Shown: positions 5,689-29,302, numbered from the stretch's first letter. The stretch is DNA of 64,000 nt from Spirochaetaceae bacterium (GCA_051531975.1 JAOPTT010000005.1:160001-224000), one strand, 5' to 3'. Notes: generated from the sequence alone by a model not told the origin. A program made the numbers and translations.

Positions 5689-7473
5689 TTAATCATGTAC
5701 TGTACGTTTAGTATAATGGGTGTGCAGAAGTTCATGAGCTTTGTGACTGTTAGGTGTCCCAAGAAAATCGTGATAAATAGTTTTGATCAAAGGATTCTCA
5801 TGAGATTTCCTCAATTGTTTTCCTTCATCTTCTTGAATTATTGCACGAAACCGCAACTTCTTAACTTCTTCTGTGGACCTTCTAGGTTGTCCTCCACCGG
5901 AAATACAACCACCGGGACAGCCCATAACTTCAATTAAGTGATATGGGGATTTTCCAGCTTTTACATCCTCCATTAGAACTTTAGCATTACCCAGACCTGA
6001 TGTCGCAGCTACTCTTGCAGTTACACCATTTAGCCAGCTATATTCAGGTAAACAATTTTCAAATAAAAGACTCGCTTCACGTATGCCTTTAATATCCATG
6101 AGATCTGTTACATGAAGTCCATCCATTGGTAACTCTTTACCCGTAACCAGTTCATAGACAGTTCTAATTGCAGCCTCTGTAACACCTCCAGAATTGGCAA
6201 AAATATCAGCAGCACCACTTGAGCGACCTAAAGGATCATCAAACTCAGAATCATGTAGATTAACAAAATCAATAGTGTGTTCACGGATTATCTTTCCAAG
6301 CTCTCTTGTAGTGAGCACATAGTCTACATCCTGAAAGCCACTTGCTCTCATTTCCGGTCTTGCCGCTTCATATTTTTTTGCAGTACAAGGCATAATGGAG
6401 ACAGAGACAATATCTTTTGGATCAATATTTTTACTCTTGGCATAATAGGTTTTAATAATTGTACCCATCATCTGCTGTGGGGATTTTGCAGTTGAAACAT
6501 TTGCTGTTAACTCTGGGAAATAATGTTCAAGATATTTAACCCATCCTGGAGAACAGCTTGTTGTCATTGGAAGTGAAACAGTGTTGTCTTTATCTACAAT
6601 TGCTTTCTTGAGACGTGTTAATAGTTCTGTTCCTTCTTCAATTATTGTTAAATCCGCCGAAAAGTTTGTATCAAAAACAGAATCAAATCCTAAAAGATTT
6701 AACGCTGTAACCATTTTTTTGGTAACAAGAGTTCCAGGAGGAAGCCCCTGTGTTTCCCCTAATGCAGCCCTGATTGCAGGAGCAGTTTGCACAACTACAT
6801 GTTTAGTTGGGTCATTTATTGCAGCTCTTACATTTTCTATATCATCTCTTTCATAAATTGCATTTACCGGGCATACAGCAATGCACTGACCACAGTTAAT
6901 ACATATTGTATCTCCTAAGTTTTCAAATGCAGGCTGAACTAAAGAACTAAAACCTCTTTCCATTATTCCTATGGCATGAATATCCTGTACGTCCTGACAA
7001 ACTGTGATACATCGTCTACAGAGAATACATTTACTGTTATCCCTTACTATGGATCGTGACGACTGATCGATAGTCTCATCGCAAATACTAGTTTCAAAAC
7101 GATATGCATCAACACGGAACTGATTTGCCAATTCCTGAAGTTCACAGTCCATACTCCTATCACAACTTAGACAGTCTTTTCTATGAGCTGATAACATTAG
7201 TTCCAATGCTGTTTTCCTTGCTTTATGGATCTGTGCTGTATTAGTATCAATTACCATACCCTCAGTAACTTGTAATACACAAGCAGCAAGTAAATTGGGT
7301 CTTCCCTCTACTTGAACTACACAAATCCGACAAATCCCATGTGCATGTAGTTCCGGCAGGTGACATAGTGTAGGTATATTAATTCCTATATCCTTTGCTG
7401 CCTTTAATACTGTTGTTCCAGCGGCCACGACCGTTTGGATTCCATTAATAGTTAATTTGATATTTTCATTCAT
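5689..7473 (-). CDS. hydA: [FeFe]-hydrogenase group A catalytic subunit (HydA/HndD-like)
   Basis: H-cluster motifs TSCSPGW, MPCTAKKYE and EVMGCPGGCISGGGQP; N-terminal 2Fe-2S, His-ligated 4Fe-4S (HRKDCLSC..C) and two CxxCxxCxxxC motifs. ATG at 7473 follows a GGGAGG RBS. Confidence 0.96.
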   Translation of the reverse strand: MNENIKLTINGIQTVVAAGTTVLKAAKDIGINIPTLCHLPELHAHGICRICVVQVEGRPNLLAACVLQVTEGMVIDTNTAQIHKARKTALELMLSAHRKDCLSCDRSMDCELQELANQFRVDAYRFETSICDETIDQSSRSIVRDNSKCILCRRCITVCQDVQDIHAIGIMERGFSSLVQPAFENLGDTICINCGQCIAVCPVNAIYERDDIENVRAAINDPTKHVVVQTAPAIRAALGETQGLPPGTLVTKKMVTALNLLGFDSVFDTNFSADLTIIEEGTELLTRLKKAIVDKDNTVSLPMTTSCSPGWVKYLEHYFPELTANVSTAKSPQQMMGTIIKTYYAKSKNIDPKDIVSVSIMPCTAKKYEAARPEMRASGFQDVDYVLTTRELGKIIREHTIDFVNLHDSEFDDPLGRSSGAADIFANSGGVTEAAIRTVYELVTGKELPMDGLHVTDLMDIKGIREASLLFENCLPEYSWLNGVTARVAATSGLGNAKVLMEDVKAGKSPYHLIEVMGCPGGCISGGGQPRRSTEEVKKLRFRAIIQEDEGKQLRKSHENPLIKTIYHDFLGTPNSHKAHELLHTHYTKRTVHD

Positions 7474-7492: not shown

Positions 7493-10400
7493 CTAGACTT
7501 CACACTCACGATAATCACATCGTAAACATCTCTTTACCTCATCAAGGATTTTATCTTCCCAGTTGACTCCACGATTAACTAAAAGAAAGTTCTTAATTCT
7601 ATCTTCTGCAGCTGAATATTCAACTTCAACTCTATCGGATTCAACAGGATCGACATCTGAATTAAAATAAACATCAGGAGAAATTGTTTTTTGCCATGAA
7701 AAGTTTTTAATAATACCAGGATTCAAATATTTTTCAATTGATACACCTACTTTCTCACCCTGTCCAATAGCCACTGCAAGATTTGCCAGACCTAGAACAT
7801 CTCCAGCAGCAAATACTTTAGGATCTGAAGTTTGAAAAGTATCTTTATCTACTTTTATTGAACCATTTCTATTTTTCTGGAGACCTTCAGCAAAAGAAAA
7901 ATCAATTACTTGAGAAATAGCAGGGATCAGGTAATCACATTCATATTCCACAATGCTCTCTTCTCCGTCCAAAGGACTTGGACTTTTTCTTCCTGAAGAA
8001 TCAAATCCACCTAAAGACTGTTTTCGACATCGAATTGCTTTGACTTTTCCATCTGAAACTATAATCTCATCTATATCAGTTAATTCTACAGGATTAATAC
8101 CCTCTTCTATTAATTCTGATATTTCCTCTTCCTCTGCTGGCATCTCATCAATTGTCCTTCGGTATGCCAGAGTTATCTTTTTTGCACCTAGGCGCAGAGC
8201 GGTTCTTGCAACATCTACTGCTGTACTTCCACCCCCAATAATAACAATATTACCTTCAACTTTCTTAAGATCATTATGTGCTACCATCCATAAGAAGTCA
8301 GTTCCACCAATGATCCCTTCAGCTTCCTCACCACTCATGTTCAGTTTTTTGCTTTCCCAACCACCAACTGTAATTACTACAGCATCATGTTCTTCTTTAA
8401 TCTGATCCATGGTAATGTCTTTACCAACAAGTGTAGATAATTTACAATCCACACCCATTTCTATAATATTATTTATCTCATTATTCAATAAAGCCTTAGG
8501 ATATCTGTATTCGGGAATCCCATACATCATCATCCCTCCTAATTTTTCCTGGCCTTCATAAATAGTTACATTATGTCCTAACCTTTTTAGGAAAAATGCA
8601 GCAGTTAATCCTGCAGGACCTCCACCAATTATTGCAATGTTCTTTATCTGGGAAGCTGTCCTAGTCATAATTGGTGGCATAGGATAAACACCCTGTTTTC
8701 CACCTTTTTCAGTCATGAAACGTTTAACTTCCCGGATAGCCAATGGAGCATCCAGGGTATCTCGACGACATTTTGTCTCACAAGGATGTGTACAGGTCAA
8801 CCCACATGCTATTGGGAACGGGTTTCTATCCAGATGGGAAATAAGGGCTTCTTCATACCTTTTTTCAGATGTTAATGCGACAAAAGCTGGAACATTTACA
8901 CCTGCAGGACAGGCATTTTGACAAGGGGCATATACTAACTCTGTACACACTCCTGCTGGACATTTTTTATCTCTTATATGAGCTTCATATTCCTCTCGGA
9001 AATTTTTAATAGTTGATAATACTGGATTTGGTGCAGTTTGACCTAATCCACATATAGCTGTAATTTTAATATCTTCACCAAGGCTGATAAGCTCTTCAAT
9101 ATCTCCCTCTTTTCCTTGACCATTTGATATACGATTTAAAATATCCAGCATCTGTTTTGTTCCTATACGACACGGAGGACATTTTCCACAAGATTCATCC
9201 TGGATAAATTCCATAAAGAACTTTGCTAGGTCAACCATACAGGTATCTTCGCTCATAACAATTAAACCACCAGAACCCATCATGGCTCCAGCTTGTTTTA
9301 AAGATTCATAATCAATTGATACATTGAGTTTGTTTTTAGGTAGACATCCACCTGACGGGCCACCAATCTGGGCAGCTTTGAAATCTTTAGCATCAATAAC
9401 ACCACCTCCGATATCAAAAATTATCTCGCCTAGAGTAATACCCATAGGAACTTCTATTAAACCTACATTTTTAACTGCACCGGCTAATGCAAAAATCTTT
9501 GTACCTTTGGATTTTTCTGTACCTATTGTATTTAATTTATCTGCACCAAGGCGGATAATGTGAGGTATATTTCCAAACGTTTCTACATTATTTACAAGGG
9601 TAGGGCAGTCCCATACTCCTTTTTGGGCAGGAAATGGTGGCTTTGGCCAAGGTTCACCTCTTTTACCTTGAATGGAATTGATTAATGCAGTCTCTTCTCC
9701 ACAGACAAATGCTCCTGCTCCCATTCGTATTTCGATATCAAAATTAAAATTTGTATTACAGATATTGCCACCTAATAATCCGTATGACCTGGCCTGTTTT
9801 ATTGCTAGATCAAGTCTATCAATTGCCAGTGGATATTCTGCTCTACAGTAGATGTATCCTCTCTCTGCACCAATAGCAAATGCAGCTAGAGCCATGCCTT
9901 CAAGGATAGTGTGGGGTAAATCCTCAAGTTGGCTTCTATCCATAAAAGCCCCCGGATCACCTTCGTCAGCGTTACATACTACATACTTTTTTCCATTGTC
10001 AGATTTTGATTTAGCAGTAATCTGCCATTTTAAACCGGTTGGAAAACCACCACCACCACGGCCTCGAAGTCCTGAATCTATAACTGAGGTTACAACATCT
10101 TCAGGTTTCATTGATGTAATAGCCTTAAGCAGTCCGTTATATCCACCAACTGCAATATATTCATCAATCTCTTCAGGGTTTATAAGTCCCGCATAATCCC
10201 GGGCAAATATTTGTTGTTTCCCAAAAAATGGAATATCTTTCATTTCCATAACTGGTTTGTTTGTATTTGGATCTTTATATACTAATGTCCCTACAGTATC
10301 ACCATTTATCAGATGGCTGGTTACTATTTCACTAGCATTTTTAGGTTCGATTTTTGTATAAAGAACACCGTCAGGATATATCATAACCAGGGGTTCCAAT

Positions 10401-10636
10401 TCACACATTACATTGTTCCCTGTTTTTATAATTTCCACTTTATTACTTAGTTCTTTATCTTTGTTAACTTCAGCAGTTATTGCTGCTGCTACTTTTTCAC
10501 AATCCTGGGATGGATTCCCGGTACCACCACAGACTAAAATGAATTTCCTGTCTGTTTTTGCACCAATTTTCCGAGGAAGCATTTTCTCTCTATTTGTCTC
10601 TACAATTTTTTCCAGATCAATTAAACTCTTTATCAT
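7493..10636 (-). CDS. hydB: HydB/NuoF-like FMN/NADH subunit fused to a C-terminal GltD/NfnB-like FAD oxidoreductase
   Basis: NuoF core: GLRGRGGGGFPTG, NADEGDPGAFMDR, FVCGEETAL, GGPSGG, ESCGKCPPCR. GltD-like part: PCQNACP, CTHPCETKC, IIGGGPAGL, GGGSTAVD, YRRT, FAAGD. ATGA overlap with the hydC stop. Confidence 0.92.
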   Translation of the reverse strand: MIKSLIDLEKIVETNREKMLPRKIGAKTDRKFILVCGGTGNPSQDCEKVAAAITAEVNKDKELSNKVEIIKTGNNVMCELEPLVMIYPDGVLYTKIEPKNASEIVTSHLINGDTVGTLVYKDPNTNKPVMEMKDIPFFGKQQIFARDYAGLINPEEIDEYIAVGGYNGLLKAITSMKPEDVVTSVIDSGLRGRGGGGFPTGLKWQITAKSKSDNGKKYVVCNADEGDPGAFMDRSQLEDLPHTILEGMALAAFAIGAERGYIYCRAEYPLAIDRLDLAIKQARSYGLLGGNICNTNFNFDIEIRMGAGAFVCGEETALINSIQGKRGEPWPKPPFPAQKGVWDCPTLVNNVETFGNIPHIIRLGADKLNTIGTEKSKGTKIFALAGAVKNVGLIEVPMGITLGEIIFDIGGGVIDAKDFKAAQIGGPSGGCLPKNKLNVSIDYESLKQAGAMMGSGGLIVMSEDTCMVDLAKFFMEFIQDESCGKCPPCRIGTKQMLDILNRISNGQGKEGDIEELISLGEDIKITAICGLGQTAPNPVLSTIKNFREEYEAHIRDKKCPAGVCTELVYAPCQNACPAGVNVPAFVALTSEKRYEEALISHLDRNPFPIACGLTCTHPCETKCRRDTLDAPLAIREVKRFMTEKGGKQGVYPMPPIMTRTASQIKNIAIIGGGPAGLTAAFFLKRLGHNVTIYEGQEKLGGMMMYGIPEYRYPKALLNNEINNIIEMGVDCKLSTLVGKDITMDQIKEEHDAVVITVGGWESKKLNMSGEEAEGIIGGTDFLWMVAHNDLKKVEGNIVIIGGGSTAVDVARTALRLGAKKITLAYRRTIDEMPAEEEEISELIEEGINPVELTDIDEIIVSDGKVKAIRCRKQSLGGFDSSGRKSPSPLDGEESIVEYECDYLIPAISQVIDFSFAEGLQKNRNGSIKVDKDTFQTSDPKVFAAGDVLGLANLAVAIGQGEKVGVSIEKYLNPGIIKNFSWQKTISPDVYFNSDVDPVESDRVEVEYSAAEDRIKNFLLVNRGVNWEDKILDEVKRCLRCDYRECEV

Positions 10637-11175
10637 ACACATGATACGGCCTCACTTTCACTGTAGGATTTTAATATTTGTTTTAATTTATTTGATTTAA
10701 CTCTTCGATGGGTATCATTATTTACCATTACTACAGGAGCAAGGGCACAAGCACCAACACATCTGACAATTTCCAGAGAGTACATACCATCGTCAGTAGT
10801 TTCACCGATATTAATGTCTAAATCATTTTGGAGCTTTTCAAGTAGGACTTTTCCACCACGAACAAAACAAGCTGTTCCCAGACATACTTTAACTGAATAT
10901 TTTCCTTTGGGAAAACGATTAAAAAAGGAGTAAAATGATGCTACCCCGGCAACTTTGATTACAGATGAATCTAGCTTCTTTGCTACGTATTTAATAACTT
11001 CTTTTGGAAGATAGCCAAAAATACTTTGTGCAATATAAAGTGCATTTATCATGTTGCCTTCCTGATCCTCATAGAGTTTCAGAATTTCATCAAGACGAGC
11101 ATACTTTTCTACCTCTGTTAATTCCTCACATTTACATCCCTCGGTCGCAACCTTTAATGGGTTTAATAGCGACAT
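10633..11175 (-). CDS. hydC: HydC/NuoE-like 2Fe-2S subunit
   Basis: VASFYSFF, VCLGTACFVRG and RCVGACALAP (four Cys); GGAGG RBS. Confidence 0.94.
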   Translation of the reverse strand: MSLLNPLKVATEGCKCEELTEVEKYARLDEILKLYEDQEGNMINALYIAQSIFGYLPKEVIKYVAKKLDSSVIKVAGVASFYSFFNRFPKGKYSVKVCLGTACFVRGGKVLLEKLQNDLDINIGETTDDGMYSLEIVRCVGACALAPVVMVNNDTHRRVKSNKLKQILKSYSESEAVSCV

Positions 11176-11399: not shown

Positions 11400-12545
11400 C
11401 TATTTTCTAATGCCCTCAGTTATCTCTTTTAAAATATCCAGGTATCTTGTTCCATAGTCTTCATATTTATAACCAGCCCCGTAATCCAGTCCACTTTCTG
11501 AAACATCTTTAGTTGTCTCTGGCTGTGTACCAGCAGTAGGTTCTATTTGTGAATCTTCATGCCATTCGTTAAATGATGTAATTAACATAATATTTCCACA
11601 ATTTTCATCTAGGTTAGGGAATGCTGCATCTTGTATCATCGCTTTAAAAACATCTCCATAACTAGAGCCTGACTCTTTATTAAAATATCTTGGAGCAGGG
11701 TGGTGGTTCGCTTCCATACGTACACCAGTATCAACATAACCAGGTGCAACTGAAGGTATAAAATGATAGCCATATTTTTTTGCCTTTTTCTTAGCGGCTG
11801 CATAAATTCTATTTAACTTTTTTATCTCTTTTTTAGTAGCACCATTTTTACCACCACCAACTGATTGTCCATATACATCGTAATTATTTACAGCATCGAG
11901 GTATCCACTTTTTGCAGCATTAATAAATACAAATAGGTCGTCACCAATAATATAGAGTTCAGGAAATTGCTCTTTTAATAACCGTAACTGATCGGCTCTA
12001 TCACCTTTAAAATACTCTCTAGTAAGGTACATGTATACAACCGGCTTACCATCAATTCTAAGATAGTTCGCATCACTAAAATAGTTATCTTTCAAATACT
12101 GCATATCTGTAAATAGGTTTGTATAATCAGGATTTTCAAAACTACCTAATCGACCTGCTGACTCGTATAGTATGGCATAATCTAACTTGTGTGCATTAGG
12201 ATGTGTCATTATATGGTCTTTTAAAGCCTTATCCTCTCCTCCGTTTGGTCCCCACCAGCTGGAAATCCAGAAATCAATTCCACTTTGCACACTCCACTCT
12301 ATATGTTGACTAATTACTTCAGGATCCATTGAGTCGTACTCTCCAAGTGCTGGGAGTTGCTGGGGATCAAGGTAAGTCCGAAATGTGTGGTCTATTGCTG
12401 TATGTGCTCCTCTTTCAACTCCGTACCATGGGTAGTAAAAAGCTCCAACTTTTAATTCTGTTATCTCTTTGCTACTCTTTTCTGTAATACAAGATAAGAA
12501 AAAAGGAATCATTATTGTTAAAATTGTAATACGTAGTAATTTCAT
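11400..12545 (-). CDS. GH99/GH71-like glycoside hydrolase, predicted lipoprotein
   Basis: Lipobox FFLSC; AFYYPWY, GEYDS, SWWG and ITSFNEWHEDSQIEP. ATG at 12545 follows GGAG. Confidence 0.8.
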   Translation of the reverse strand: MKLLRITILTIMIPFFLSCITEKSSKEITELKVGAFYYPWYGVERGAHTAIDHTFRTYLDPQQLPALGEYDSMDPEVISQHIEWSVQSGIDFWISSWWGPNGGEDKALKDHIMTHPNAHKLDYAILYESAGRLGSFENPDYTNLFTDMQYLKDNYFSDANYLRIDGKPVVYMYLTREYFKGDRADQLRLLKEQFPELYIIGDDLFVFINAAKSGYLDAVNNYDVYGQSVGGGKNGATKKEIKKLNRIYAAAKKKAKKYGYHFIPSVAPGYVDTGVRMEANHHPAPRYFNKESGSSYGDVFKAMIQDAAFPNLDENCGNIMLITSFNEWHEDSQIEPTAGTQPETTKDVSESGLDYGAGYKYEDYGTRYLDILKEITEGIRK

Positions 12546-12567
12546 GTTAAATCTCCATTTAAATTTA

Positions 12568-12577
12568 TGATATATCA
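12568..12577. promoter_or_regulatory. TGATATATCA palindromic operator candidate
   Basis: The same 10-mer lies upstream of three co-oriented genes (12568, 15804, 17528). Confidence 0.6.
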
Positions 12578-12689
12578 AATTATTTTATTCTATATATTGT
12601 GAACCAAAGAGATAGACCCTATCCTCAAAAACATGGGATTTTCCATCGGGATGTACTCATTTGATGGAAGAAAAGGTTTTAATCTCTCT

Positions 12690-14279
12690 CTATTTATGTA
12701 TTACGTTCTCTGATACTAATCTTACTAGCTCATCTGGTGTTACAACTTTTACATTGGAATCTAGACCATCTATAACATTTTGGATGTTGTCCAGACCGTT
12801 ACTCCAGGCGTGAACTAAAACAAGGGAGTAACCTTTGCCACTAGTTGGATCTTTATCATTTTTGTTAAGACTCTTAATTACAGACTCTTCGTTACAACCT
12901 CTTAAACCTTCCCACAACATCTCCCGGGGTGTAATTATCGGTTTATTATTGGACCAACGTATTTTACCTTTATGATATTTATGATTACTGTATTCCAGAT
13001 AGAATAGTGCATCAATATTCTCTTGTTTTGTATAGGTATCCCATATGCTATTTTTTTTAAATGATCCAAAATCAATGATTTCAACAACTCCTAAATCAGC
13101 CTGTCCCATTCTTTTATTAAGTCTCTCTGTATGGATAGATAGCGCCTCGGGACTGTAGTCACTTGGGTAGAGGTATCCACTACCGGAAGGTCCAACAACA
13201 AAATGATCCATTGAAGCTTCCTCGTAATACCGGTTAAGAATAGTTGGAGCAACGTCGAGCATTATTGGGGATGTAGCCCAACCCATTGGAATAGAAGCTC
13301 TTTTATCATTTCCCCACCATTTGGAATCGGAATATAAATCACCAAGCATCCATTGGATATTATCCCCATCACTCATTAAAAAAGAGACATAATGAACATC
13401 TTCTTCTACAATAGTTGTAACATTGTCCTTCTGCTTCATCTCTACAGCATCAAAGCCACTAAATACAGAGAGATTTCTAGTATGATCTGCCGGTATAGTA
13501 TAGAGATCACTTTTAGAGCTCATTCCAACAAATTTTTCTTCACCACCTTTAGCTCCCCAACCAAAAACTGGGACATCCTGATTAGTCCACATAGCCACCT
13601 CTTTTCTAAAAGAGGAGTTACCATCAAAGAATATATAAGCACCTGTAGCAACTGCAAAATCTCTTAATGCTGGAATAAGAACCTCTTTCTGTTCAAAGAC
13701 TATATCTCTGGAAAGTTGATTTTTATAGTTTTCAAAGACCCATTTATCATCTTTTCCTCGGACATCCTGAACCATAGTGAATCCGGCATCTTTTATTTTT
13801 TGTTCCAGTGATTCATCCACAGCTGGAGCCTTTAAGAGGGATACGAGACTGTTGGCAACATTAATAGACTGATCATTTAAAGACTGATTATCATGAGTCA
13901 ATTCTCCTACAGAGCAGAGGATGTATCCATCAATATACTGCTTAAATATTTCTAATACAGACCAAGGATCACTAATTTCCACTAACTTAACCCCTTTTGC
14001 AGCTAGATCCTCCAACCATACATCGTATCCTCCATAGTGAGGATGTAAATATATCTGGGTTGTTGAAAAGTTAGAAACTAATCCTTGTAAAGTACTAAAC
14101 AGCAGTTTCTCTTCAGTAGATAGTGTATTTGCATTTATAACAAGAAGCTTTTCTGCTTTTAAAATTCTATTGGTTACATCAGATAACTCAGCAGCTCTGT
14201 CTGCTGAATCTTTTGTTGTATATGATTTACAGCCCAATAAAGCTAACATTATAATAGCAATGTTCAATATATTTTTCAT
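12690..14279 (-). CDS. GxGYxYP-domain putative glycoside hydrolase, lipoprotein
   Basis: Lipobox LLGC; SDGDNIQW, GPSGSGYLYPS and VHAWS motifs. Confidence 0.85.
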   Translation of the reverse strand: MKNILNIAIIMLALLGCKSYTTKDSADRAAELSDVTNRILKAEKLLVINANTLSTEEKLLFSTLQGLVSNFSTTQIYLHPHYGGYDVWLEDLAAKGVKLVEISDPWSVLEIFKQYIDGYILCSVGELTHDNQSLNDQSINVANSLVSLLKAPAVDESLEQKIKDAGFTMVQDVRGKDDKWVFENYKNQLSRDIVFEQKEVLIPALRDFAVATGAYIFFDGNSSFRKEVAMWTNQDVPVFGWGAKGGEEKFVGMSSKSDLYTIPADHTRNLSVFSGFDAVEMKQKDNVTTIVEEDVHYVSFLMSDGDNIQWMLGDLYSDSKWWGNDKRASIPMGWATSPIMLDVAPTILNRYYEEASMDHFVVGPSGSGYLYPSDYSPEALSIHTERLNKRMGQADLGVVEIIDFGSFKKNSIWDTYTKQENIDALFYLEYSNHKYHKGKIRWSNNKPIITPREMLWEGLRGCNEESVIKSLNKNDKDPTSGKGYSLVLVHAWSNGLDNIQNVIDGLDSNVKVVTPDELVRLVSENVIHK

Positions 14280-14310
14280 GAGGTTTTCCTAAATGTATAT
14301 GATTAATTAG

Positions 14311-14343
14311 ATCTTTTAGCAGAGATGCGCTCTACTAAAAGAT
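14311..14343 (-). terminator. Intergenic hairpin (terminator or mRNA stabiliser)
   Basis: 14-bp stem ATCTTTTAGTAGAG/CTCTGCTAAAAGAT on the minus strand with one G-U pair. Confidence 0.55.
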
Positions 14344-14362
14344 AGTGATTATATTTCTTTAT

Positions 14363-15733
14363 TTAAATATGCGCAGCATGTTTTTCATTAATGCCTTTCT
14401 GAATCTCTCTTTCACGTTTAAGACCTAGGGGAACACATGCCAATAATATAATACCTACAGTAAGTATAGCAGCTGGAACAAACCCTGTTCCAATCCGAAT
14501 AGCTTGTACAACCTCAGGCGCCTGAACTTTAACAGTGCCGTCATAACCTGTAGCTGATAATAACGTACTTAAAATTAAAGGTTGAAAACTTGCCGCTGGA
14601 ATCATTACAACAGCCATAATACCTCTAACAACACCTGGTTGTCTTTTTCCTGTCTTTAACTCTATGTGGTCTATTACTAAACCAGCAAGAGGTTCATTTA
14701 TTGCAGATGGGAAAGCAAAACCTAATAGAATTACAATATAAGCAGCTGCTGCTACCCAGTAATTTATTTGAAAACCTAGGATTGCAAATCCTATAACAGA
14801 GATAATTAATCCTTTCCAAAGAGTTCTTAGAGCTCCATTCTTTCTAACAGCCAGTACTACTAATGGTAAAATTGCCATTTGAGCAAAACCGGTAATAAGA
14901 TCCGGAATAGTTGCTTTTAAACCTGATACAAGGACTACATTATCCATATAGTATATATATCCTGCAAAGTAGTTTCCTGTCGCTGCCTGAATGAATAAAA
15001 ATGCTGTGATAAATAGCAGGAATGTTCTATCAGTAAAAAGTTCTTTTCCAAGTCTAAACAGTTGTTTTAGACCTCTTGTTACTTCCAGTTTTTCATAAAA
15101 CTTAGGATCTTCCTTAACAAATTTAGAACCAAACCATACAAGAGCAAGACCTAAGAGAATAGATACTGAAAAAATTGCAACAAGTGTTCCTTGAGAATAA
15201 TCTCCAGTTAAGAACCATATTGGGATCATACCACCTAAGAAAGTAGGGATCATCTTAACATAACTACCAATAACCTGAACTTCTGTCCTGTCATCCATTG
15301 ATATAAAAGTATTAACAGTAAATGCCATAAAACTAACGTTTAGTAGTGTTTGAGCTCCTTCATAAATTACCAATAAAACAAGTAGTGATACCGCTATTAG
15401 CATTTGACTCCAACTAGGAGGTGATAACAATATTAATATCATAGGTATACCAATTACAGGAATTGAATAACGTATTAGCGGTTTATATTTACCTATACCC
15501 TTCCTGAATGGTTGTTTATCAGCCCAATAACCAATAACAGGATCGTTTACACCATTCCAAATACTAAAAATAAGAAAAACTAAACCGTACATAGCAGGGC
15601 TTAATCCAACAACATCAGTAAAGTATTTCATAAGTGAACTATTAACTATAATAGAAATCCATACTCCACCACCTCCTACAAGATTTAAGAGAATCATTTT
15701 TGGTATAGTATAATACCCCTTTTTTTTACCCAT
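14363..15733 (-). CDS. MFS glycoside-pentoside-hexuronide (GPH) sugar:cation symporter
   Basis: About 12 TM segments; WNGVNDPVIGYWAD, DHIELKTGKRQPG and TGYDG motifs. Confidence 0.88.
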   Translation of the reverse strand: MGKKKGYYTIPKMILLNLVGGGGVWISIIVNSSLMKYFTDVVGLSPAMYGLVFLIFSIWNGVNDPVIGYWADKQPFRKGIGKYKPLIRYSIPVIGIPMILILLSPPSWSQMLIAVSLLVLLVIYEGAQTLLNVSFMAFTVNTFISMDDRTEVQVIGSYVKMIPTFLGGMIPIWFLTGDYSQGTLVAIFSVSILLGLALVWFGSKFVKEDPKFYEKLEVTRGLKQLFRLGKELFTDRTFLLFITAFLFIQAATGNYFAGYIYYMDNVVLVSGLKATIPDLITGFAQMAILPLVVLAVRKNGALRTLWKGLIISVIGFAILGFQINYWVAAAAYIVILLGFAFPSAINEPLAGLVIDHIELKTGKRQPGVVRGIMAVVMIPAASFQPLILSTLLSATGYDGTVKVQAPEVVQAIRIGTGFVPAAILTVGIILLACVPLGLKREREIQKGINEKHAAHI

Positions 15734-15803
15734 CTATTCCTCCGATGTTATATAATCATTCAATATTATTTTCATTGTAAAATCTTTAATAAAAAACATT
15801 CAA

Positions 15804-15868
15804 TGATATATCATATGTTTGATTATTATTATTTGATATAACATTAACATGAATAACTTAGATGTCAA
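15804..15868 (-). promoter_or_regulatory. Sigma70-type promoter with two TGWTATATCA operators
   Basis: Minus-strand TTGACA at 15863-15868; TGATATATCA at 15804-15813 and TGATATAACA at 15834-15843. Confidence 0.6.
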
Positions 15869-15924
15869 GATAAAGATATTATAAACTTTGAAGTAGGAGA
15901 GAGTAATACATAGTATTGCTCTTT

Positions 15925-17433
15925 TTAATACTGCTCACTTTTTAGTACCATGAGGTTATAATCCCAAGCCTGTTTATATTTCTGGAACCTGAAACTTTTG
16001 ACATCAGATGGTTTATAACTTCTGTTTGATCTGGAAAAAGCTTCCCACCAGAACTTACCCCAATGAGTCTTAGTCTCGTCCCACTCATCTCGGTTTTTAA
16101 CCATTTTATCCCTTAGAGTTTTAATTACGTCCCTATATTCTGGATTAGAAGCTAGGTTTTTAATCTCTAGAGGATCATTTTGAAGATCAAAGAGTTGGGT
16201 TTTTAAATGTTTACCCCTAAGAACATACTCTATTAGTTTGTACTGTTTAGTTTTAACTCCACGTTGGTATCTACTATATACTAGATATAGATCGTCTCTC
16301 ACCGACTCTTTTTTTCCATAGATTAGAGGCATCAGACTCTTTCCATCCACAGTTTCCGGGGTGGACAGTCCTGAATAATCACACAGTGTAGGATAAATAT
16401 CATAGAGATAAACCATTGAATCCAATTGTACATTCTCTGGAATTCCAGGACCGGAAAATATAAGAGGAACCCGGACACTATGTTCATGACAACTCTGTTT
16501 TCCCATTAAACCATGTTGTCCCAGTGCTAAACCATTATCCCCAGCAAGAACTATAATTGTACTCTCTAGAAGGTTTTGGTTCTGGAGCTCATCTAATACA
16601 CGACCTATCTCATAATCTAAATGACTTATCATTCCATAATATTCAGCTATATGTTCTTTTACTTCATCTGGTTTCCTCGGGTATGATGCCAGTTTTTCAT
16701 CCCTATTTCCAAGCCCACCATTATTAAACGGATATTTTTTAAGAAAGTTTTTTGGTAACTCTATGGTATTAGGATCATACATTTTTTTAAAATTATCAGG
16801 CATAGTTCTTGGATCGTGGGGAGCTAAAAATGATAGATACATAAAAAATGGATTTGATTCATCACGCTCTTTCAAATAATCTATTCCTGCCTGGGCAATT
16901 ATTTCACTGGAGTGACGGCCTTTGTAGCAGTAATCATACTTATGTGTTTTTGTTTTATTCGTTTTAAAAGGATTAGTAATATAACGACCATTACCCTGGT
17001 ATTTACCAGTTGAATCATAATCATACATTGGTACATTCCAATGATCTGCCATACCTCCAAAAAAGATATGTGAGCCTCTGTTATGGTTACGATTAAAGGA
17101 TTTTTTCCCATTATGCCATTTTCCACTACCAAATGAGTCATAACCTGAACTTTGTAATTTTTCACCTAGTGTAGTCTGATCTTCAGCTATGGATTCACCA
17201 GCGTCTTTAATTCTGAATAGAGATCGACCAGTAAATAACATTGCTCTACTTGGCATACATACTGCTCCATGAGTTCCTCCAGGAATATGAGCCTGGGTAA
17301 ACGATGTTCCTTTTTTTACAAGACGATCCATATTAGGTGTTATTATATTAGGATTTCCTAGGGCTGCAATTGTATCGAAACGTTGATCATCTGTGAAAAG
17401 AACAACAATATTAGGACGTTTTTCTGTACTCAT
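15925..17433 (-). CDS. Cys-type formylglycine sulfatase (S1 family)
   Basis: RPNIVVLFTDDQ, CMPSRAMLFTG, GKWH, PHDP, GDNG and GKQ. ATG at 17433 follows GGAG. Confidence 0.93.
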   Translation of the reverse strand: MSTEKRPNIVVLFTDDQRFDTIAALGNPNIITPNMDRLVKKGTSFTQAHIPGGTHGAVCMPSRAMLFTGRSLFRIKDAGESIAEDQTTLGEKLQSSGYDSFGSGKWHNGKKSFNRNHNRGSHIFFGGMADHWNVPMYDYDSTGKYQGNGRYITNPFKTNKTKTHKYDYCYKGRHSSEIIAQAGIDYLKERDESNPFFMYLSFLAPHDPRTMPDNFKKMYDPNTIELPKNFLKKYPFNNGGLGNRDEKLASYPRKPDEVKEHIAEYYGMISHLDYEIGRVLDELQNQNLLESTIIVLAGDNGLALGQHGLMGKQSCHEHSVRVPLIFSGPGIPENVQLDSMVYLYDIYPTLCDYSGLSTPETVDGKSLMPLIYGKKESVRDDLYLVYSRYQRGVKTKQYKLIEYVLRGKHLKTQLFDLQNDPLEIKNLASNPEYRDVIKTLRDKMVKNRDEWDETKTHWGKFWWEAFSRSNRSYKPSDVKSFRFQKYKQAWDYNLMVLKSEQY

Positions 17434-17495
17434 TTTCCACTCCAAATAAGATTGAATTTAATAATTGACAGGTAATTATTTTGTGTTGTATTAAA

Positions 17496-17537
17496 TGTTA
17501 TATCACCCATTATGGCATCTGTAAAGCTGATATATCA
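17496..17537. promoter_or_regulatory. Two TGWTATATCA operators upstream of the sulfatase
   Basis: TGTTATATCA at 17496-17505 and TGATATATCA at 17528-17537. Confidence 0.6.
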
Positions 17538-17673
17538 ATTGGAAAATTGAACTAACTATAAATTATATAATTTATACAAAACAACGATAAGACTACTTTA
17601 ATGAATAGATATTAACTAAATTATAGGAGAGGTAGTATATTAACCTTTATTTTCACACTACCTAGAATCATTT

Positions 17674-17689
17674 AGTTACGCGTGTAACT
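17674..17689. promoter_or_regulatory. LacI-type operator (distal)
   Basis: AGTTACGCGTGTAACT, a near-palindrome with central CG; 14/16 identical to 17864-17879. Confidence 0.7.
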
Positions 17690-17828
17690 GCATAGGTATA
17701 TACTAATAAAAAGAATTAGATGATATGAAATCACTTTTGTAAAGCTTTAATATCCTCAGTCTAAGTCCGTAATTCAGCCTTTAGACCGTAAAACATTCAT
17801 TATTCATAACAAAATATAAAAATATTAC

Positions 17829-17879
17829 TTGACGACTCAATATAGTGATGTTAGATTTAAGCCAGTAACGCGGGTAACT
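17829..17879 (+). promoter_or_regulatory. Sigma70 promoter with overlapping LacI-type operator
   Basis: TTGACG-17bp-TAGATT with an extended -10 TG; AGTAACGCGGGTAACT at 17864-17879 covers the expected start site. Confidence 0.72.
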
Positions 17880-17913
17880 AAGTGTTTCTGAAAAAGATTT
17901 ATTGAGGTATGCA

Positions 17914-18936
17914 ATGGCAACTAGACAAGATGTAGCAAATAAAGCTGGAGTTTCTCCTGCAACAGTCTCCCATGTAGTTAACAATACTAAATATGTAAGC
18001 CCAGAGCTGAAAGTTAAAATAGAGCGTGCCATAGAGGAATTGAACTATGTCCCAAATAAAACGGCCCGTAATCTGGCTATGAATAAAACGGAACAAGTTG
18101 GAATCCTAGTCCCTAGTTTGAGTAATCCTTATTTTGGAGCTATAGCAGAGGGGATGGAAAAGGTTGCAAGGAAAAACGGTTATATCGTTTCACTTTTTGC
18201 TCCAGAAGGACCGGATGACCAGTATATAACTACAATTATAGAGAGACAGATGGATGGGGTATTTCTTGCAAATACAGGTTTTCAATTCTCAGAGAGTCAA
18301 TTAAGGCACATGGAGAGAAGTGGAGTTTCATTTGTTACAGGTAATGAAATTGAAACTTCCGGTGATAATGGTTCAAAATTTAATAATTCAATTGTAAGTC
18401 TGGATTATGATGTGTCAATAAAAAAAATGTTTAAGTACCTAACAGATCTGGGACATAAAAAAATAGCTTTTTTGAGCGGGATGCCTGAAGATAATGGTGA
18501 TTTAAGAAAAAAGTATTACCTAGAAAATATGGAAGCTTTTGGATTGGATTTTAAGGAAAAATATATTGTTAACGGAAATTTTCCTTTTACAACTACAGCA
18601 AGAGACGGCTACAAAGATATGAAGAAATTTTTAAGTACCGGCAGTGATGTTACTGCTGTTTTTGCAATAAATGACTTAATGGCAATTGGTGCCATGAAAG
18701 CAATAAGAGAAGCCGGATTAAATGTTCCAGAGGATATCTCTATTGTAGGTTGTGATAATATTTTCCTCTCTGAGGCATCAGATCCTCCATTAACAACAAT
18801 TAATGTTCCTAAAGAAGAGATGGGGCGTAAAGCAATGGAGTTGCTTTTAAGAATGATAAACAATAAAGAAAGTAATGAAATATCCCTGGAAACAGAGCTT
18901 GTAATCAGGGAATCTACATCTTTCGCAAAAAAATAA
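17914..18936 (+). CDS. LacI-family transcriptional regulator
   Basis: TRQDVANKAGVSPATVSHVVN helix-turn-helix, hinge YVPNKTAR, and NDLMAIG...PEDISIVGCD. Confidence 0.96.
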   Translation: MATRQDVANKAGVSPATVSHVVNNTKYVSPELKVKIERAIEELNYVPNKTARNLAMNKTEQVGILVPSLSNPYFGAIAEGMEKVARKNGYIVSLFAPEGPDDQYITTIIERQMDGVFLANTGFQFSESQLRHMERSGVSFVTGNEIETSGDNGSKFNNSIVSLDYDVSIKKMFKYLTDLGHKKIAFLSGMPEDNGDLRKKYYLENMEAFGLDFKEKYIVNGNFPFTTTARDGYKDMKKFLSTGSDVTAVFAINDLMAIGAMKAIREAGLNVPEDISIVGCDNIFLSEASDPPLTTINVPKEEMGRKAMELLLRMINNKESNEISLETELVIRESTSFAKK

Positions 18937-29100: not shown

Positions 29101-29302
29101 AACCTTCTCTATTCATAAGGAAATAGTCGTGGAAGTCTCTATTACAAGAAAAAATACATTTGGTCCTCTTTACAATCCTCTCTCTAATATGGGAACTGTT
29201 GGGCCAAAATCGTTTATAACAGGGTGGAAATGGTTCTACAGAAAACCTACTTTCATTAAATCAGGTCTTATTAGACCAATTATTATCCATAGGAGTAAAT
29301 AA
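26198..29302 (+). CDS. GH106-like glycoside hydrolase (putative alpha-L-rhamnosidase)
   Basis: PFWSWNG, GGFFMHSR, WIYDEDRWPSG, FTDEP, PGVD and SELYG. Confidence 0.8.
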   Translation: MDNIEKIFNNPGPQWRGKPFWSWNGDLKEEELLRQIQILKDMGFGGFFMHSRTGLATEYLGEKWFQLINRCAEEGEDLGMEAWIYDEDRWPSGTAGGMVTENPEYQMKFIHLDISNGRDFSLKDAEKQEGKWLGAWSCRLKNKFDIYDLKKVNKETSLKEIRNKKILSFRVVPMESSPFYNGATYVDTMKREATDEYIRLTHEAYKEHCGEHFGKAIKGVFTDEPHRGPFMSGFSLHHYKGGNPLFMVPWTDTLFEEFFKVFGYSVEENLPKLFLRYKGQKVSDIKAHYAEIMLKLFINNFAKPCYNWCEDNNLKLTGHVLHENNFSSQVSTNGSVQRYYPHMHIPGVDVLSEHTRDYWLVKQVDSTARQFGQKWILSELYGCTGWQMSFQQHKAMGAWQTLFGVNLRSHHLSWYSMQGESKRDFPASIFHQSPWYKEYDKVETWFSRLGYFRSLGNPICDLLVINPVESVWGRVYPGAIKVMDAQDRGIKKLEKKYSKLFHILAGNQIDFDYGDEGLLEEHGSVSGETSELKLGEMKYKTVLVAGMSTIRKSTLVLLRQFQKVGGRLVFAGDIPDYVDSKLSSEVEDLLFSGLQCEFREKEIVETLTSIIDRPCRILGSASGKREKQVFSQFRKDKDGEYLTVLNMNRKKTLSIDIELNRTTDAVEEWNLDDGQRYKEKTHISNGRLYIDTLKLAPSGALCFRLASSTDLPAKKDEFKATSHRSKLSGSCNYSLGEKNICVLDRPKWNLMDAGFSGPMEILQIDRLIRNNLNIPLRGGEMVQPWFRAKQSFESLGSLKLEYNLKITAGALQSMKTAELVLETPERFNLIVNGQSVDLKQDNGFWTDIAFRRIPLPEDIFVEGINHLELSCDFREDVNLEALYLIGDFAVDVSRRTLCINPLPKKVVPRNLVKQGFPFYSGSFFYHYDVPQNLQDSEVLITIPQYYGAYVKLHSGTHDKIVPWLPAETTFSIHKEIVVEVSITRKNTFGPLYNPLSNMGTVGPKSFITGWKWFYRKPTFIKSGLIRPIIIHRSK

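What the first reader, a model, noticed from the sequence alone, without database searches (positions are those of the whole stretch)
7493..10636. HydABC hydrogenase whose HydB carries a whole GltD/NfnB-like NADP(H) flavoprotein in place of the ferredoxin domain
Seen: the NuoF core keeps GDPGAFM, KIFAL, GGPSG and the H..C..C site (EAHIRDKKCPAGVC). The usual C-terminal 2x[4Fe-4S] ferredoxin-like domain is absent. From about 8930 a ~475 aa module follows with Fe-S cysteines, an FAD GxGxxG and GGGSTAVD...YRRT. Known: canonical bifurcating HydABC uses that ferredoxin-like domain for the low-potential branch, and YRR marks NADP(H) binding in GltD/NfnB proteins. Inference: the enzyme may couple H2, NADH and NADPH within one complex, or add a second flavin branch. 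NuoF-GltD fusions are not unprecedented in annotations, but I do not know of biochemistry for this pairing with an [FeFe] HydA.
Basis: partly seen in the sequence, partly recalled or inferred. Interest (0 to 1): 0.72.

Follow-up and report, generated by a model that had tools for sequence, protein, structure and literature searches.

The report
Hydrogenase flavoprotein carrying NADPH module
A marine sugar-fermenting bacterium carries an intact three-gene iron-iron hydrogenase whose flavin subunit has an NADPH-binding flavoprotein module where the ferredoxin-docking domain normally sits; the design is real and widespread, was already catalogued from genomes, and has not been tested biochemically in any paper I could find.

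Summary
On the minus strand lie hydC (10633-11175), a 1049-aa hydB fusion (7493-10642) and hydA (5689-7473). HydB keeps the FMN/NADH core, the [4Fe-4S] cluster, the His/Cys zinc hinge and all three published "bifurcating-type" signatures. Straight after the hinge, the two-cluster ferredoxin domain is replaced by a GltD/NfnL-like module (2x[4Fe-4S], FAD, NADPH-type YRR).

The fusion is no artefact: 119 full-length homologues share the junction, and hydC-hydB-hydA order recurs. New here: the module is the circularly permuted cassette of StnC/NfnA transhydrogenases, and carries their lysine cluster ligand, not the glutamate of bifurcating NfnL. That argues against a second bifurcating flavin. This lineage has also lost two of four cysteines of the N-terminal metal site.

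The architecture is already in print from genomes (2018; "sub-type I BfuB", 2024), and this scan noted it before on other DNA. I found no biochemistry.

Most likely it is a ferredoxin-independent hydrogenase linked to both NAD(H) and NADP(H). Whether the two are energetically coupled is open.

The parts
10633..11175 (-). hydC (BfuC/NuoE-like, 180 aa) with the four Cys of the [2Fe-2S] C1 cluster (C98, C103, C139, C143)
   Evidence: ORF and translation. PF01257 29-171, E 9.3e-50. The four Cys are invariant in 14 of 14 HydC sequences from fused operons. Its stop overlaps the hydB start.
7493..10642 (-). hydB fusion (1049 aa): NuoF-type flavoprotein joined to a permuted NfnL/GltD-like module; an alternative start lies at 10636
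   Evidence: A GAGG lies 8 nt before the ATG at 10642, and the ATG at 10636 overlaps the hydC stop as ATGA.
10268..10555 (-). N-terminal thioredoxin-like domain (residues about 30-125) with a degenerate B5 metal site: C38, N43, N76, C80
   Evidence: the pattern is CCCC in 116 of 120 rows, CNNC in the query and CHNC in P0005 and P0006. No PF01257 hit for the query, unlike most homologues. It is the fastest-evolving domain.
9008..10177 (-). NuoF core (residues 156-545): FMN/NADH site, SLBB domain, four-helix bundle with the B1 [4Fe-4S] cluster (C485, C488, C491, C531)
   Evidence: PF01512, PF10531 and PF10589. Best solved match is A. woodii HydB 7q4v_B at 724 bits. The bifurcating-type signatures A232/M234, F312 and GGPSG hold in 120 of 120 rows.
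8930..9007 (-). Zinc-hinge (B2) motif H555-x5-C561-x4-C566, with C433 of the core; the fusion junction follows it directly
   Evidence: The motif is shared with the canonical HydB and the Fdh-type NuoF of the same genome. H555, C561 and C566 are kept in 120 of 120 rows and C433 in 118 of 120. The 3Cys+His zinc site is described in the paper text.
8678..8929 (-). Fe-S domain of the NfnL-like module (residues 572-655): C574, C578, C613, C617, C621, C625 and K640
   Evidence: PF14691. The alignment to StnC/NfnA starts at their residue 102. The Cys are kept in 119-120 of 120 rows and K640 in 120 of 120. K640 aligns with StnC K170 (paper text).
7718..8677 (-). FAD- and NADP(H)-binding Rossmann domains (residues 656-975): GGGPAG 673-678, R713, GGGSTA 803-808, YRR 827-829
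   Evidence: PF07992 668-962. The motifs hold in 120 of 120 rows. YRR(T/S) is shared with 9bov_A, 8oh5_C, 9n5u_A and 4ylf_B.
7496..7717 (-). Permuted C-terminal tail (residues 976-1049) ending in RCLRC (C1039, C1042), which is the N-terminal segment of ordinary NfnL/GltD proteins
   Evidence: It aligns in one piece with the StnC/NfnA tail. hhalign of the tail profile against 17 canonical NfnL-like proteins maps residues 1000-1042 onto NfnL 26-67 with probability 97.4% and E 1.4e-11. C1039 and C1042 are kept in 120 of 120 rows.
5689..7473 (-). hydA ([FeFe]-hydrogenase catalytic subunit, 594 aa from the ATG at 7473; the ORF is open from the GTG at 7518)
   Evidence: A GGGAGG lies 8 nt before the ATG at 7473. 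Pfam finds Fer2_4, NADH-G_4Fe-4S_3, Fer4, Fe_hyd_lg_C and Fe_hyd_SSU. NF040763 scores above its cut-off. Best solved matches are T. kivui and A. woodii HydA1 at 565 bits, with TSCSPGW, MPCTAKK and CPGGC kept.

Best explanation
This is an intact hydC-hydB-hydA operon for a soluble trimeric [FeFe]-hydrogenase of the HydABC/Bfu family, of the kind catalogued as 'sub-type I'.

Shown: HydA has the full Fe-S chain and the H-cluster motifs. HydC has its [2Fe-2S] cysteines. HydB keeps the FMN/NAD(H) site, the adjacent [4Fe-4S] cluster, the zinc hinge and the sequence signatures of bifurcating enzymes. Seven residues after the hinge, the ferredoxin-reducing B3/B4 domain is replaced by a circularly permuted NfnL-like module with two [4Fe-4S] sites, FAD and an NADPH-type pocket.

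Inferred: NADP(H) takes the place of ferredoxin as the third substrate. Electrons run from the H-cluster through the HydA clusters to B1 and FMN, where NAD(H) reacts. From the flavin site they pass through the mobile HydC cluster into the module's two clusters, then to FAD and NADP(H).

The enzyme would then catalyse 2 H2 + NAD+ + NADP+ <-> NADH + NADPH + 2 H+ without free ferredoxin. In this fermenter it would most likely run towards H2. In that direction NADPH (about -380 mV) helps to pull NADH (about -280 mV) oxidation up to roughly 100-150 Pa H2 (my Nernst estimate).

The confidence given is for this functional reading. The architecture itself is near certain.
For: All cofactor ligands and nucleotide motifs are conserved in 118-120 of 120 full-length rows.

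The core is closest to proven bifurcating HydB (7q4v_B, 724 bits). It carries the A/M, F and GGPSG signatures of Losey et al.. The NuoE::NuoF HydB of the same genome carries the non-bifurcating ones, GEPGTFK, Y and GGASG.

The module is closest to the NADPH-oxidising modules of NfnA/StnC: 373 and 357 bits, against 244 and 236 for NfnL. It shares their permutation and their Lys ligand.

The module sits directly behind the hinge that carries B3/B4 in solved enzymes, where the HydC/NfnC cluster delivers low-potential electrons (paper text).

Gene order is conserved. hydC lies upstream in 17 of 17 loci, and hydA with its H-domain lies downstream in 12 of the 14 loci that have downstream sequence. 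One further locus pairs the same fused subunit with a [NiFe] hydrogenase, so the module goes with the BfuBC core rather than with HydA.

The genome also encodes a canonical HydABC, a non-bifurcating-type HydAB, NfnAB, PFOR, RnfD/NqrB-family genes (Rnf or Nqr) and G6PD. The fused enzyme is therefore an extra isoenzyme in a cell that has both ferredoxin and NADPH pools.

The redox potentials are from the table quoted.
Against: No activity data exist for any member that I could find, in eight answered literature searches.

Sending the costly low-potential electron to NADP+ wastes energy in the H2-uptake direction. The two nucleotide sites could also work independently, without coupling.

The path from HydC to the module's clusters is inferred from where the module is attached, not from a model.

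This lineage has lost two of the four Cys of the N-terminal B5 site. The JBC 2025 text says that mutagenesis found the B5 cluster essential for bifurcation in an FeFe-HydABC, although the same site holds a redox-inert zinc in active Nfn-Bfu enzymes.

The conserved Arg713 and the four-Cys second motif are also found in bifurcating NfnL.
Confidence: 0.42

Rival explanations
1. The enzyme is an uncoupled dual-specificity hydrogenase. NADH at the FMN and NADPH at the FAD each exchange electrons with the H-cluster independently. It is then a ferredoxin-independent NAD(P)H hydrogenase with no bifurcation or confurcation.
For: The B3/B4 domain is absent, as in the non-bifurcating enzymes discussed. 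Two of four B5 Cys are lost in the query and its two closest relatives, and B5 was reported essential for bifurcation in an FeFe-HydABC. NADPH at about -380 mV can drive H2 formation on its own at moderate H2 pressure (potentials; the inference is mine).
Against: The NuoF core keeps every bifurcating-type signature in 120 of 120 rows. The truly non-bifurcating-type HydB of the same genome has lost them. The Bfu-specific hinge histidine is kept. 116 of 120 family members keep all four B5 Cys.
Confidence: 0.27
2. The FAD of the module is a second, NfnL-like bifurcation centre, as Zheng and Huang postulated in 2024. The module's clusters would still reduce ferredoxin, so the enzyme would handle H2, NAD, NADP and ferredoxin.
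For: The module is homologous to NfnL. Arg713 is conserved, and its equivalent contacts flavin N5 in NfnL. The second Cys motif has four Cys, as in NfnL. The idea is in print.
Against: The proximal-cluster ligand position holds Lys in 120 of 120 fused proteins. That matches the electron-transfer modules of StnC/NfnA. It holds Glu in 15 of 17 canonical NfnL-like proteins (paper text). The module scores far higher against NfnA/StnC than against NfnL. There is no NfnS-like partner in the operon. In NfnA the homologous FAD lies at the start of a single path.
Confidence: 0.12
3. The module serves another partner or a regulatory role. It might pass electrons to a separate enzyme, as GltD does for GltB, or it might sense the NADPH/NADP ratio rather than act as a substrate site of the hydrogenase.
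For: GltD-like modules are electron-delivery parts for many enzymes. HydDB's group A2 is annotated as 'glutamate synthase-linked'. The 2018 genome paper suggested a link to glutamate.
Against: No gltB or other candidate acceptor lies next to the operon; its neighbours are glycoside hydrolases, transporters and two-component genes. The conserved unit across phyla is only hydC-hydB-hydA. All catalytic motifs of the module are invariant.
Confidence: 0.07

Closest known systems
'Sub-type I' BfuABC(D) [FeFe]-hydrogenase of Hydrogenedentota and other phyla (Zheng and Huang, mSystems 2024, PMC11406978), and the enlarged HydB of Vallitalea guaymasensis L81 (PMC6163223)
   Same: The architecture is the same. 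The B3/B4 domain of BfuB is replaced by a DPD_II two-cluster domain plus a C-terminal FAD/NAD(P) domain, next to BfuC and an M3a-type BfuA (passages).
   Different: Those are descriptions from genomes only. This operon has no bfuD gene. It belongs to a separate clade, 63-91% identical within the clade but about 50% to the rest. It has lost two B5 cysteines. Those papers' passages do not mention the permutation or the Lys ligand; I did not see their supplements.
Electron-bifurcating HydABC (Acetobacterium woodii 7q4v/8a5e, Thermoanaerobacter kivui 8a6t, Thermotoga maritima 7p5h)
   Same: HydA scores 565 bits to 8a6t_A and 7q4v_A, with H-cluster motifs as in A. woodii. HydC matches. HydB residues 32-571 score 724 bits and include the FMN site, B1 and the zinc hinge.
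   Different: The C-terminal ferredoxin-like domain, which carries B3/B4 and where ferredoxin is reduced, is missing and replaced. B5 is degenerate here.
Stn / NfnABC (Nfn-Bfu) transhydrogenases (Sporomusa ovata 8oh5, Caldicellulosiruptor saccharolyticus 9bov, Thermococcus sibiricus 9n5u)
   Same: The NfnL-like cassette is the same: it aligns end to end (residues 572-1048 against 102-575), with the permuted RCLxC tail, the Lys ligand, the FAD site and the YRR NADPH site. The BfuBC-type core is also the same.
   Different: There the cassette is inserted into the NuoG-like A subunit and feeds the mid-potential chain. The B subunit keeps B3/B4 and reduces ferredoxin, and there is no H-cluster. 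Here the cassette hangs on the B subunit in place of B3/B4. StnC C114 has no equivalent here (Val, Ile or Ala), and the query keeps a Cys (C613) that StnC lacks.
NfnSL / NfnAB (Thermotoga maritima 4ylf, Pyrococcus furiosus 5jca)
   Same: The GltD fold, two [4Fe-4S] sites, FAD, the NADPH YRR motif and the conserved Arg are shared.
   Different: NfnL is not permuted. It has Glu where the query has Lys, needs an NfnS partner, and its FAD bifurcates. The genome has its own separate NfnAB pair.
Non-bifurcating NADH-dependent HydAB(C) (Syntrophus aciditrophicus, Syntrophomonas wolfei; Losey et al. 2020, PMC7311640)
   Same: Both are multimeric [FeFe]-hydrogenases whose beta subunit lacks the B3/B4 ferredoxin domain and works without ferredoxin.
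   Different: Those beta subunits carry T/S and K/S/A, Y, and no GGPSG. The query carries the bifurcating pattern and an extra flavoprotein module.
HydDB group A2 'glutamate synthase-linked' [FeFe]-hydrogenase (putative)
   Same: An [FeFe]-hydrogenase is associated with a GltD-like NAD(P)H flavoprotein.
   Different: In A2 the GltD-like protein is a separate subunit without NuoF. HydDB's rule sends any neighbour that contains NuoF to A3, so this fusion is filed as A3.

Membership tests
Bfu/HydABC family, B subunit (BfuB/HydB) | NuoF-type FMN/NAD(H) domain with the adjacent [4Fe-4S] cluster (B1) | tested here: met
   PF01512 and PF10589. C485, C488, C491 and C531 are kept in 119-120 of 120 rows.
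Bfu/HydABC family, B subunit (BfuB/HydB) | His/Cys hinge site (B2), with the histidine said to be conserved in nearly all Bfu B subunits | tested here: met
   H555, C561 and C566 are kept in 120 of 120 rows and C433 in 118 of 120. The feature is taken from the paper text.
Bfu/HydABC family, B subunit (BfuB/HydB) | Sequence signatures of bifurcating beta subunits (A/E and M in GDPGAFM, F near the FMN, GGPSG) | tested here: met
   They are present in the query and in 120 of 120 rows.
Bfu/HydABC family, B subunit (BfuB/HydB) | C-terminal ferredoxin-like domain with two [4Fe-4S] clusters (B3, B4) | tested here: not met
   There is no Fer4-type hit. The alignment shows the domain replaced.
Bfu/HydABC family, B subunit (BfuB/HydB) | N-terminal thioredoxin-like domain with four metal ligands (B5) | tested here: not met
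   The query has C-N-N-C. 116 of 120 family rows have C-C-C-C.
'Sub-type I' BfuABC [FeFe]-hydrogenase (Zheng and Huang 2024) | BfuB with a DPD_II domain plus a FAD/NAD(P) domain in place of B3/B4, next to BfuC and an M3a-type BfuA | tested here: met
   PF14691 and PF07992 follow PF10589 in HydB. HydA has Fer2_4, NADH-G_4Fe-4S_3, Fer4, the H-domain and the SSU domain, with no C-terminal [2Fe-2S] domain. HydC has PF01257. The definition comes from the passages.
'Sub-type I' BfuABC [FeFe]-hydrogenase (Zheng and Huang 2024) | Placement inside their sub-type I clade in a concatenated ABC tree | not tested
   Their sequences and supplementary data were not available to me.
NfnL-like cassette of NfnA/StnC (Nfn-Bfu) | Circularly permuted topology, with the RCLxC segment at the C-terminal end | tested here: met
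   The alignment to 9bov_A and 8oh5_C is continuous through the tail. hhalign of the tail against NfnL N-termini gives probability 97.4% and E 1.4e-11.
NfnL-like cassette of NfnA/StnC (Nfn-Bfu) | Lysine ligand of the FAD-proximal [4Fe-4S] cluster (Sov K170, Tsi K165) | tested here: met
   K640 aligns with StnC K170 and is kept in 120 of 120 rows. That it binds iron here is inferred.
NfnL-like cassette of NfnA/StnC (Nfn-Bfu) | Inserted in the NuoG-like A subunit between its [2Fe-2S] domain and the rest | tested here: not met
   Here it is appended to the C-terminus of the B subunit.
NfnL of bifurcating NfnSL | Glutamate ligand of the proximal cluster, unpermuted N-terminal CxxC, and an NfnS partner gene | tested here: not met
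   The position holds Lys, not Glu; Glu is found in 15 of 17 canonical NfnL-like proteins. The module is permuted. There is no NfnS-like gene in the operon.
[FeFe]-hydrogenase group A catalytic subunit | H-cluster motifs P1 (TSCxP), P2 (MPCxxK) and P3 (CPGGC), and the accessory cluster domains | tested here: met
   TSCSPGW (as in A. woodii HydA1), MPCTAKK and EVMGCPGGC are seen in the alignments. PF02906 has E 3.1e-92. NF040763 scores above its cut-off.
NADP(H)-specific GltD-type nucleotide site | Second GxGxxA motif followed by YRR at the end of the next strand | tested here: met
   GGGSTA 803-808 and YRR 827-829 hold in 120 of 120 rows. The same motif is seen in four of the four printed alignments to NADPH-using solved relatives. 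Actual specificity cannot be tested with these tools.

The most novel reading that the evidence does not exclude
The enzyme is an obligately coupled, ferredoxin-free H2:NAD+/NADP+ oxidoreductase. It would be the first Bfu-type bifurcating core whose low-potential branch ends on a pyridine nucleotide through a built-in flavoprotein. It would poise H2 (around 100-150 Pa) midway between the cell's NADH and NADPH pools. This lineage, which has lost the N-terminal B5 ligands, would be a natural proof that B5 is dispensable for the mechanism in an [FeFe] enzyme.
Probability: 0.3. Interest if true: 0.75.

Novelty: new member of a known kind. Interest (0 to 1): 0.4.

Why it matters
How HydABC/Bfu enzymes split electron pairs is still debated. 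The open points are the role of the B5 site, the gating by the mobile HydC cluster, and the route to ferredoxin.

This natural variant offers a simple test object. The ferredoxin-reducing domain is swapped for an NADPH flavoprotein, so all three substrates (H2, NAD, NADP) are small molecules that can be followed optically. In this lineage B5 is also degenerate.

For physiology, such an enzyme would let fermenters vent NADPH and NADH as H2 without ferredoxin, or make NADPH from H2. HydDB's rule and NCBIfam's name both file the fusion among ordinary NuoF-linked or NADH-dependent hydrogenases. Models of hydrogen turnover built on such labels could therefore misassign the cofactors.

It matters less as a discovery, because the architecture is already catalogued.

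Tried and rejected
Assembly artefact or gene-call fusion: rejected. There is one open frame with no N. The same junction occurs in 119 full-length homologues and in 97 of the best 150 representative clusters.

Hinge cysteines C561/C566 as ligands of the module's clusters: Pfam's Fer4_20 model aligns its N-terminal part there. I rejected this in favour of the tail cysteines. The hinge motif is also present in HydB and NuoF proteins without the module, and the tail is homologous to the NfnL N-terminus.

A triple fusion NuoF-ferredoxin-GltD in relative G025: one search showed a 1278-aa frame, but it is two ORFs of 584 and 688 aa.

Promoter and terminator scan: promoter-like sites were no more frequent than in shuffles (24 against 24.1), and no terminator-like hit lies right after hydA. 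Nothing was concluded.

Expression: a metatranscriptome of the same marine sample holds four short contigs (161-195 nt, at least 99% alike) on hydA and hydB at depth about 2-2.6. The tool warns that DNA can sit in RNA libraries, and I could not lay a silent control stretch. This is only a weak hint.

Tree: the FastTree topology does not resolve whether all fused HydBs form one clade, because the deep forks are open. No claim of a single origin is made.

Structure prediction and complex prediction were not available, so no model of where the module sits was obtained.

Literature searches that found no biochemistry of this architecture.


Full report
**What is there**

Three co-directional genes lie on the minus strand.
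- hydC: 10633-11175, 180 aa.
- hydB: 7493-10642, a 1049-aa gene.
- hydA: open from 7518. A GGGAGG lies 8 nt before the ATG at 7473, so it most likely starts there and gives 594 aa.

The hydC stop overlaps the hydB start, and hydA starts 19 nt after the hydB stop.

Pfam and NCBIfam results:
- HydC is a thioredoxin-like [2Fe-2S] protein.
- HydA is a group-A [FeFe]-hydrogenase with the full N-terminal cluster chain. NF040763 scores 837.7 bits against a cut-off of 765.
- HydB reads Complex1_51K (189-360), SLBB, NADH_4Fe-4S (471-555), Fer4_20 (547-649) and Pyr_redox_2 (668-962).

No ferredoxin-type dicluster family is found in HydB. The canonical 596-aa HydB of the same genome has one. The alignment shows the two proteins parting right after the shared H-x5-C-x4-C motif.

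**Not an artefact, and not rare**

A database search listed 120 homologues, and 119 of them are at least 950 aa (P0093, 723 aa, was dropped). They are 50-91% identical. The names their sources give span Spirochaetes, Bacillota, Lentisphaerae, Armatimonadetes, Chitinispirillaceae, Smithellaceae, Pontiellaceae and Phycisphaerae.

In an alignment of these 119 plus the query (120 rows), conservation is nearly complete:
- B1 cysteines: 119-120 of 120.
- Hinge His/Cys: 118-120 of 120.
- The eight module cysteines: 119-120 of 120.
- K640, R713, both GxGxx(G/A) motifs and YRR: 120 of 120.

A junction probe (residues 520-700) against 1.84 billion cluster representatives gave 135 hits at E of 1e-30 or better. 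Of the best 150, 97 span the junction by BLASTP. Many of these representatives are fragments.

Among 41 genomes of the same class, 13 hold a full-length or contig-cut fused copy. None was found in the three same-genus genomes, which are 96, 81 and 71% complete.

Seventeen loci hold a full-length fused gene in one BLAST segment. Six came and 11 from the 80 loci. L055, L063 and L082, which had partial or multi-piece matches, were not counted.
- hydC lies upstream in 17 of 17.
- Fourteen of the loci have downstream sequence. In 12 the downstream gene matches HydA into the H-cluster domain. In 2 (L023, L045) it matches only the N-terminal cluster domain.
- L045 continues with a NuoG/molybdopterin-fold subunit and [NiFe] small and large subunits. 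L023 has a molybdopterin-fold subunit cut by the contig end.

So the fused B subunit also serves at least one [NiFe] enzyme.

**What the two halves are**

Against solved structures, residues 32-571 match bifurcating HydB best: A. woodii 7q4v_B at 724 bits, and [NiFe]-HydB 7t2r_B at 700 bits.

Residues 572-1048 match the NfnL-like part (residues 102-575) of C. saccharolyticus NfnA (373 bits), S. ovata StnC (357 bits) and T. sibiricus NfnA (316 bits). These scores are well above those for T. maritima NfnB (244) and P. furiosus NfnL (236).

The match to NfnA/StnC runs to the very end, including a tail with RCLRC. A profile of that tail aligns to residues 26-67 of 17 ordinary NfnL-like proteins with hhalign probability 97.4% and E 1.4e-11. 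The module is therefore a circular permutation of NfnL. Its first Cys motif is split, with PCxxxCP at the start and RCLxC at the end, exactly as in the cassette inserted into NfnA/StnC.

This gives eight module cysteines. It leaves H555, C561, C566 and C433 for the zinc hinge described in solved Bfu enzymes (JBC 2025, section read).

The papers state that the FAD-proximal cluster has a Lys ligand in NfnA/StnC, whose FAD only transfers electrons. In NfnL, whose FAD bifurcates, the ligand is Glu. The query's K640 aligns with StnC K170. It is Lys in 120 of 120 fused proteins. The same column is Glu in 15 of 17 canonical NfnL-like proteins of this genome and its relatives; the two exceptions belong to a different Fer4-GltD subgroup.

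YRR(T/S) is shared with all four printed alignments to NADPH-using relatives.

**The core**

Losey et al. (section read) separate bifurcating from non-bifurcating beta subunits by A/E and M in the NADH loop, by F against Y near the FMN, and by GGPSG.
- The query and all 120 rows have the bifurcating pattern.
- As an internal control, the NuoE::NuoF HydB of the same genome has GEPGTFK, Y and GGASG.

[quoted passage not shown] Its four metal ligands read C-N-N-C in the query and C-H-N-C in its two closest relatives, against C-C-C-C in 116 of 120 rows. The fourth exception, P0055, is N-terminally short. The domain is kept but is the fastest-evolving part, while the module's Fe-S domain is the most conserved.

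The JBC 2025 text says this site is a [2Fe-2S] cluster in other solved structures, that mutagenesis found it essential for bifurcation in an FeFe-HydABC, and that it is a redox-inert zinc in an active Nfn-Bfu enzyme. The Commun Biol 2025 text reports zinc there in a second one.

**Genome context**

The only public run that holds most of the stretch (0.98 of the sampled words), which may be the source of this DNA, is labelled marine metagenome. The window is rich in sulfatases, rhamnosidases and sugar transporters.

The genome also encodes the following:
- a canonical hydC-HATPase-x-hydB-hydA cluster;
- a NuoE::NuoF HydB with its own HydA;
- a NuoE-NuoF-FdhA set;
- an NfnAB pair;
- PFOR;
- RnfD/NqrB-family genes;
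- G6PD.

The fused enzyme is thus a third [FeFe] isoenzyme in a fermenter that has both ferredoxin and NADPH pools.

Its gene is only about 49% identical to the fused copies of same-family genomes. It groups with a separate clade of metagenomic sequences (support 87). This fits the mobility of these clusters reported in the 2024 paper.

**How it most likely works**

In solved Bfu enzymes the mobile C-subunit cluster carries low-potential electrons from the FMN site to B3/B4, which hang on the zinc hinge. Here the module's Fe-S domain begins seven residues after the last hinge cysteine. I infer that its clusters take the place of B3/B4 and lead to FAD and NADP(H).

Calculations from the in-vivo potentials quoted (NAD -280, NADP -380, Fd -500, H2 -414 mV) are my own:
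- A coupled NADH + NADPH -> 2 H2 reaction would equilibrate near 150 Pa H2.
- NADH alone would equilibrate near 3 Pa.
- The NADH + ferredoxin enzyme would equilibrate near 0.15 bar.

Together with NfnAB this would allow more NADH per ferredoxin to leave as H2. All of this is inference.

The uncoupled reading is a serious rival, especially given the lost B5 ligands. The published idea of a second bifurcating FAD is weakened by the Lys/Glu and permutation evidence. Structure and complex prediction, which could have placed the module, were unavailable.

**Prior knowledge**

- The 2018 Vallitalea genome paper describes an enlarged HydB with a GltD domain replacing the two-[4Fe-4S] domain (passages).
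- HydDB's rule 'GltD but not NuoF' files such neighbours under A3 (passages).
- Zheng and Huang 2024 define 'sub-type I BfuB' with DPD_II plus a FAD/NAD(P) domain in place of B3/B4, and ask for biochemistry (passages).
- The JBC 2025 paper notes the NfnL-like domain in '[FeFe] hydrogenase group A' (section).

Eight full-text searches found no assay or structure of such an enzyme. Supplements were not read and could hold more. Subscription papers are not in the library.

Earlier notes of this scan report the same architecture on other DNA, and they pointed me to the 2024 paper. I checked that claim.

**Verdict**

This is real, intact and conserved. The function is plausible but untested. The design is already catalogued from genomes.

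The added value here is threefold:
- the cassette is identified as the permuted, Lys-type electron-transfer module;
- the B5 loss in this lineage is documented;
- the isoenzyme context is laid out.

Noticed in passing
window 11400-18000 and 19000-45400: The hydrogenase operon sits in a polysaccharide-utilisation landscape. There are five sulfatases (15925-17445, 33999-35357, 38695-40074, 43857-45374, plus SGSH_C domains), two alpha-L-rhamnosidase-type genes, a GxGYxYP hydrolase, GH99/WbsX-like genes, MFS and ABC sugar transporters and a LacI regulator. This suggests a degrader of sulfated, rhamnose-rich marine glycans.
   Followed up: partly
window 26198-29302 (+): A 1034-aa ORF between a rhamnosidase and a GH43/GH130-like gene has no Pfam family at E of 1e-5 or better. 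It may be an undescribed carbohydrate-active enzyme.
   Followed up: no
window 20680-22626 (+): A 648-aa protein combines a beta-propeller region (weak PF13570 match, below its cut-off) with an ABC permease domain (BPD_transp_1). This is unusual for a binding-protein-dependent transporter.
   Followed up: no
window 45839-46240 (+) and 55513-55875 (+): A PIN-domain protein and a HepT-like ribonuclease are candidate toxin halves of toxin-antitoxin pairs. Their partners were not examined.
   Followed up: no
own genome, G000:C10:59000-66000 (locus L010): Next to the NfnAB pair lies a 593-aa Fer4-dicluster::GltD-like protein followed by a 348-aa protein with a Complex1_49kDa / [NiFe]-large-subunit-like domain. 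This is another GltD-linked redox unit of unclear function.
   Followed up: no
own genome, G000:C6:539500-546000 (locus L008): A NuoE::NuoF fusion (541 aa) with non-bifurcating-type signatures sits directly before a 596-aa HydA. This is the S. aciditrophicus-type dimeric NADH hydrogenase architecture.
   Followed up: partly
loci L062 and L065: In a Deltaproteobacteria (Myxococcota) MAG and a Halanaerobiales MAG, the fused hydCBA operon lies in tandem with a second hydCBA-like set whose HydB matches only the NuoF part.
   Followed up: no
relatives G021:C2:2730908-2733495 and G038:C143: The NuoF half and the GltD half match in two adjacent pieces rather than one frame. These may be split or frameshifted versions of the fusion.
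   Followed up: no
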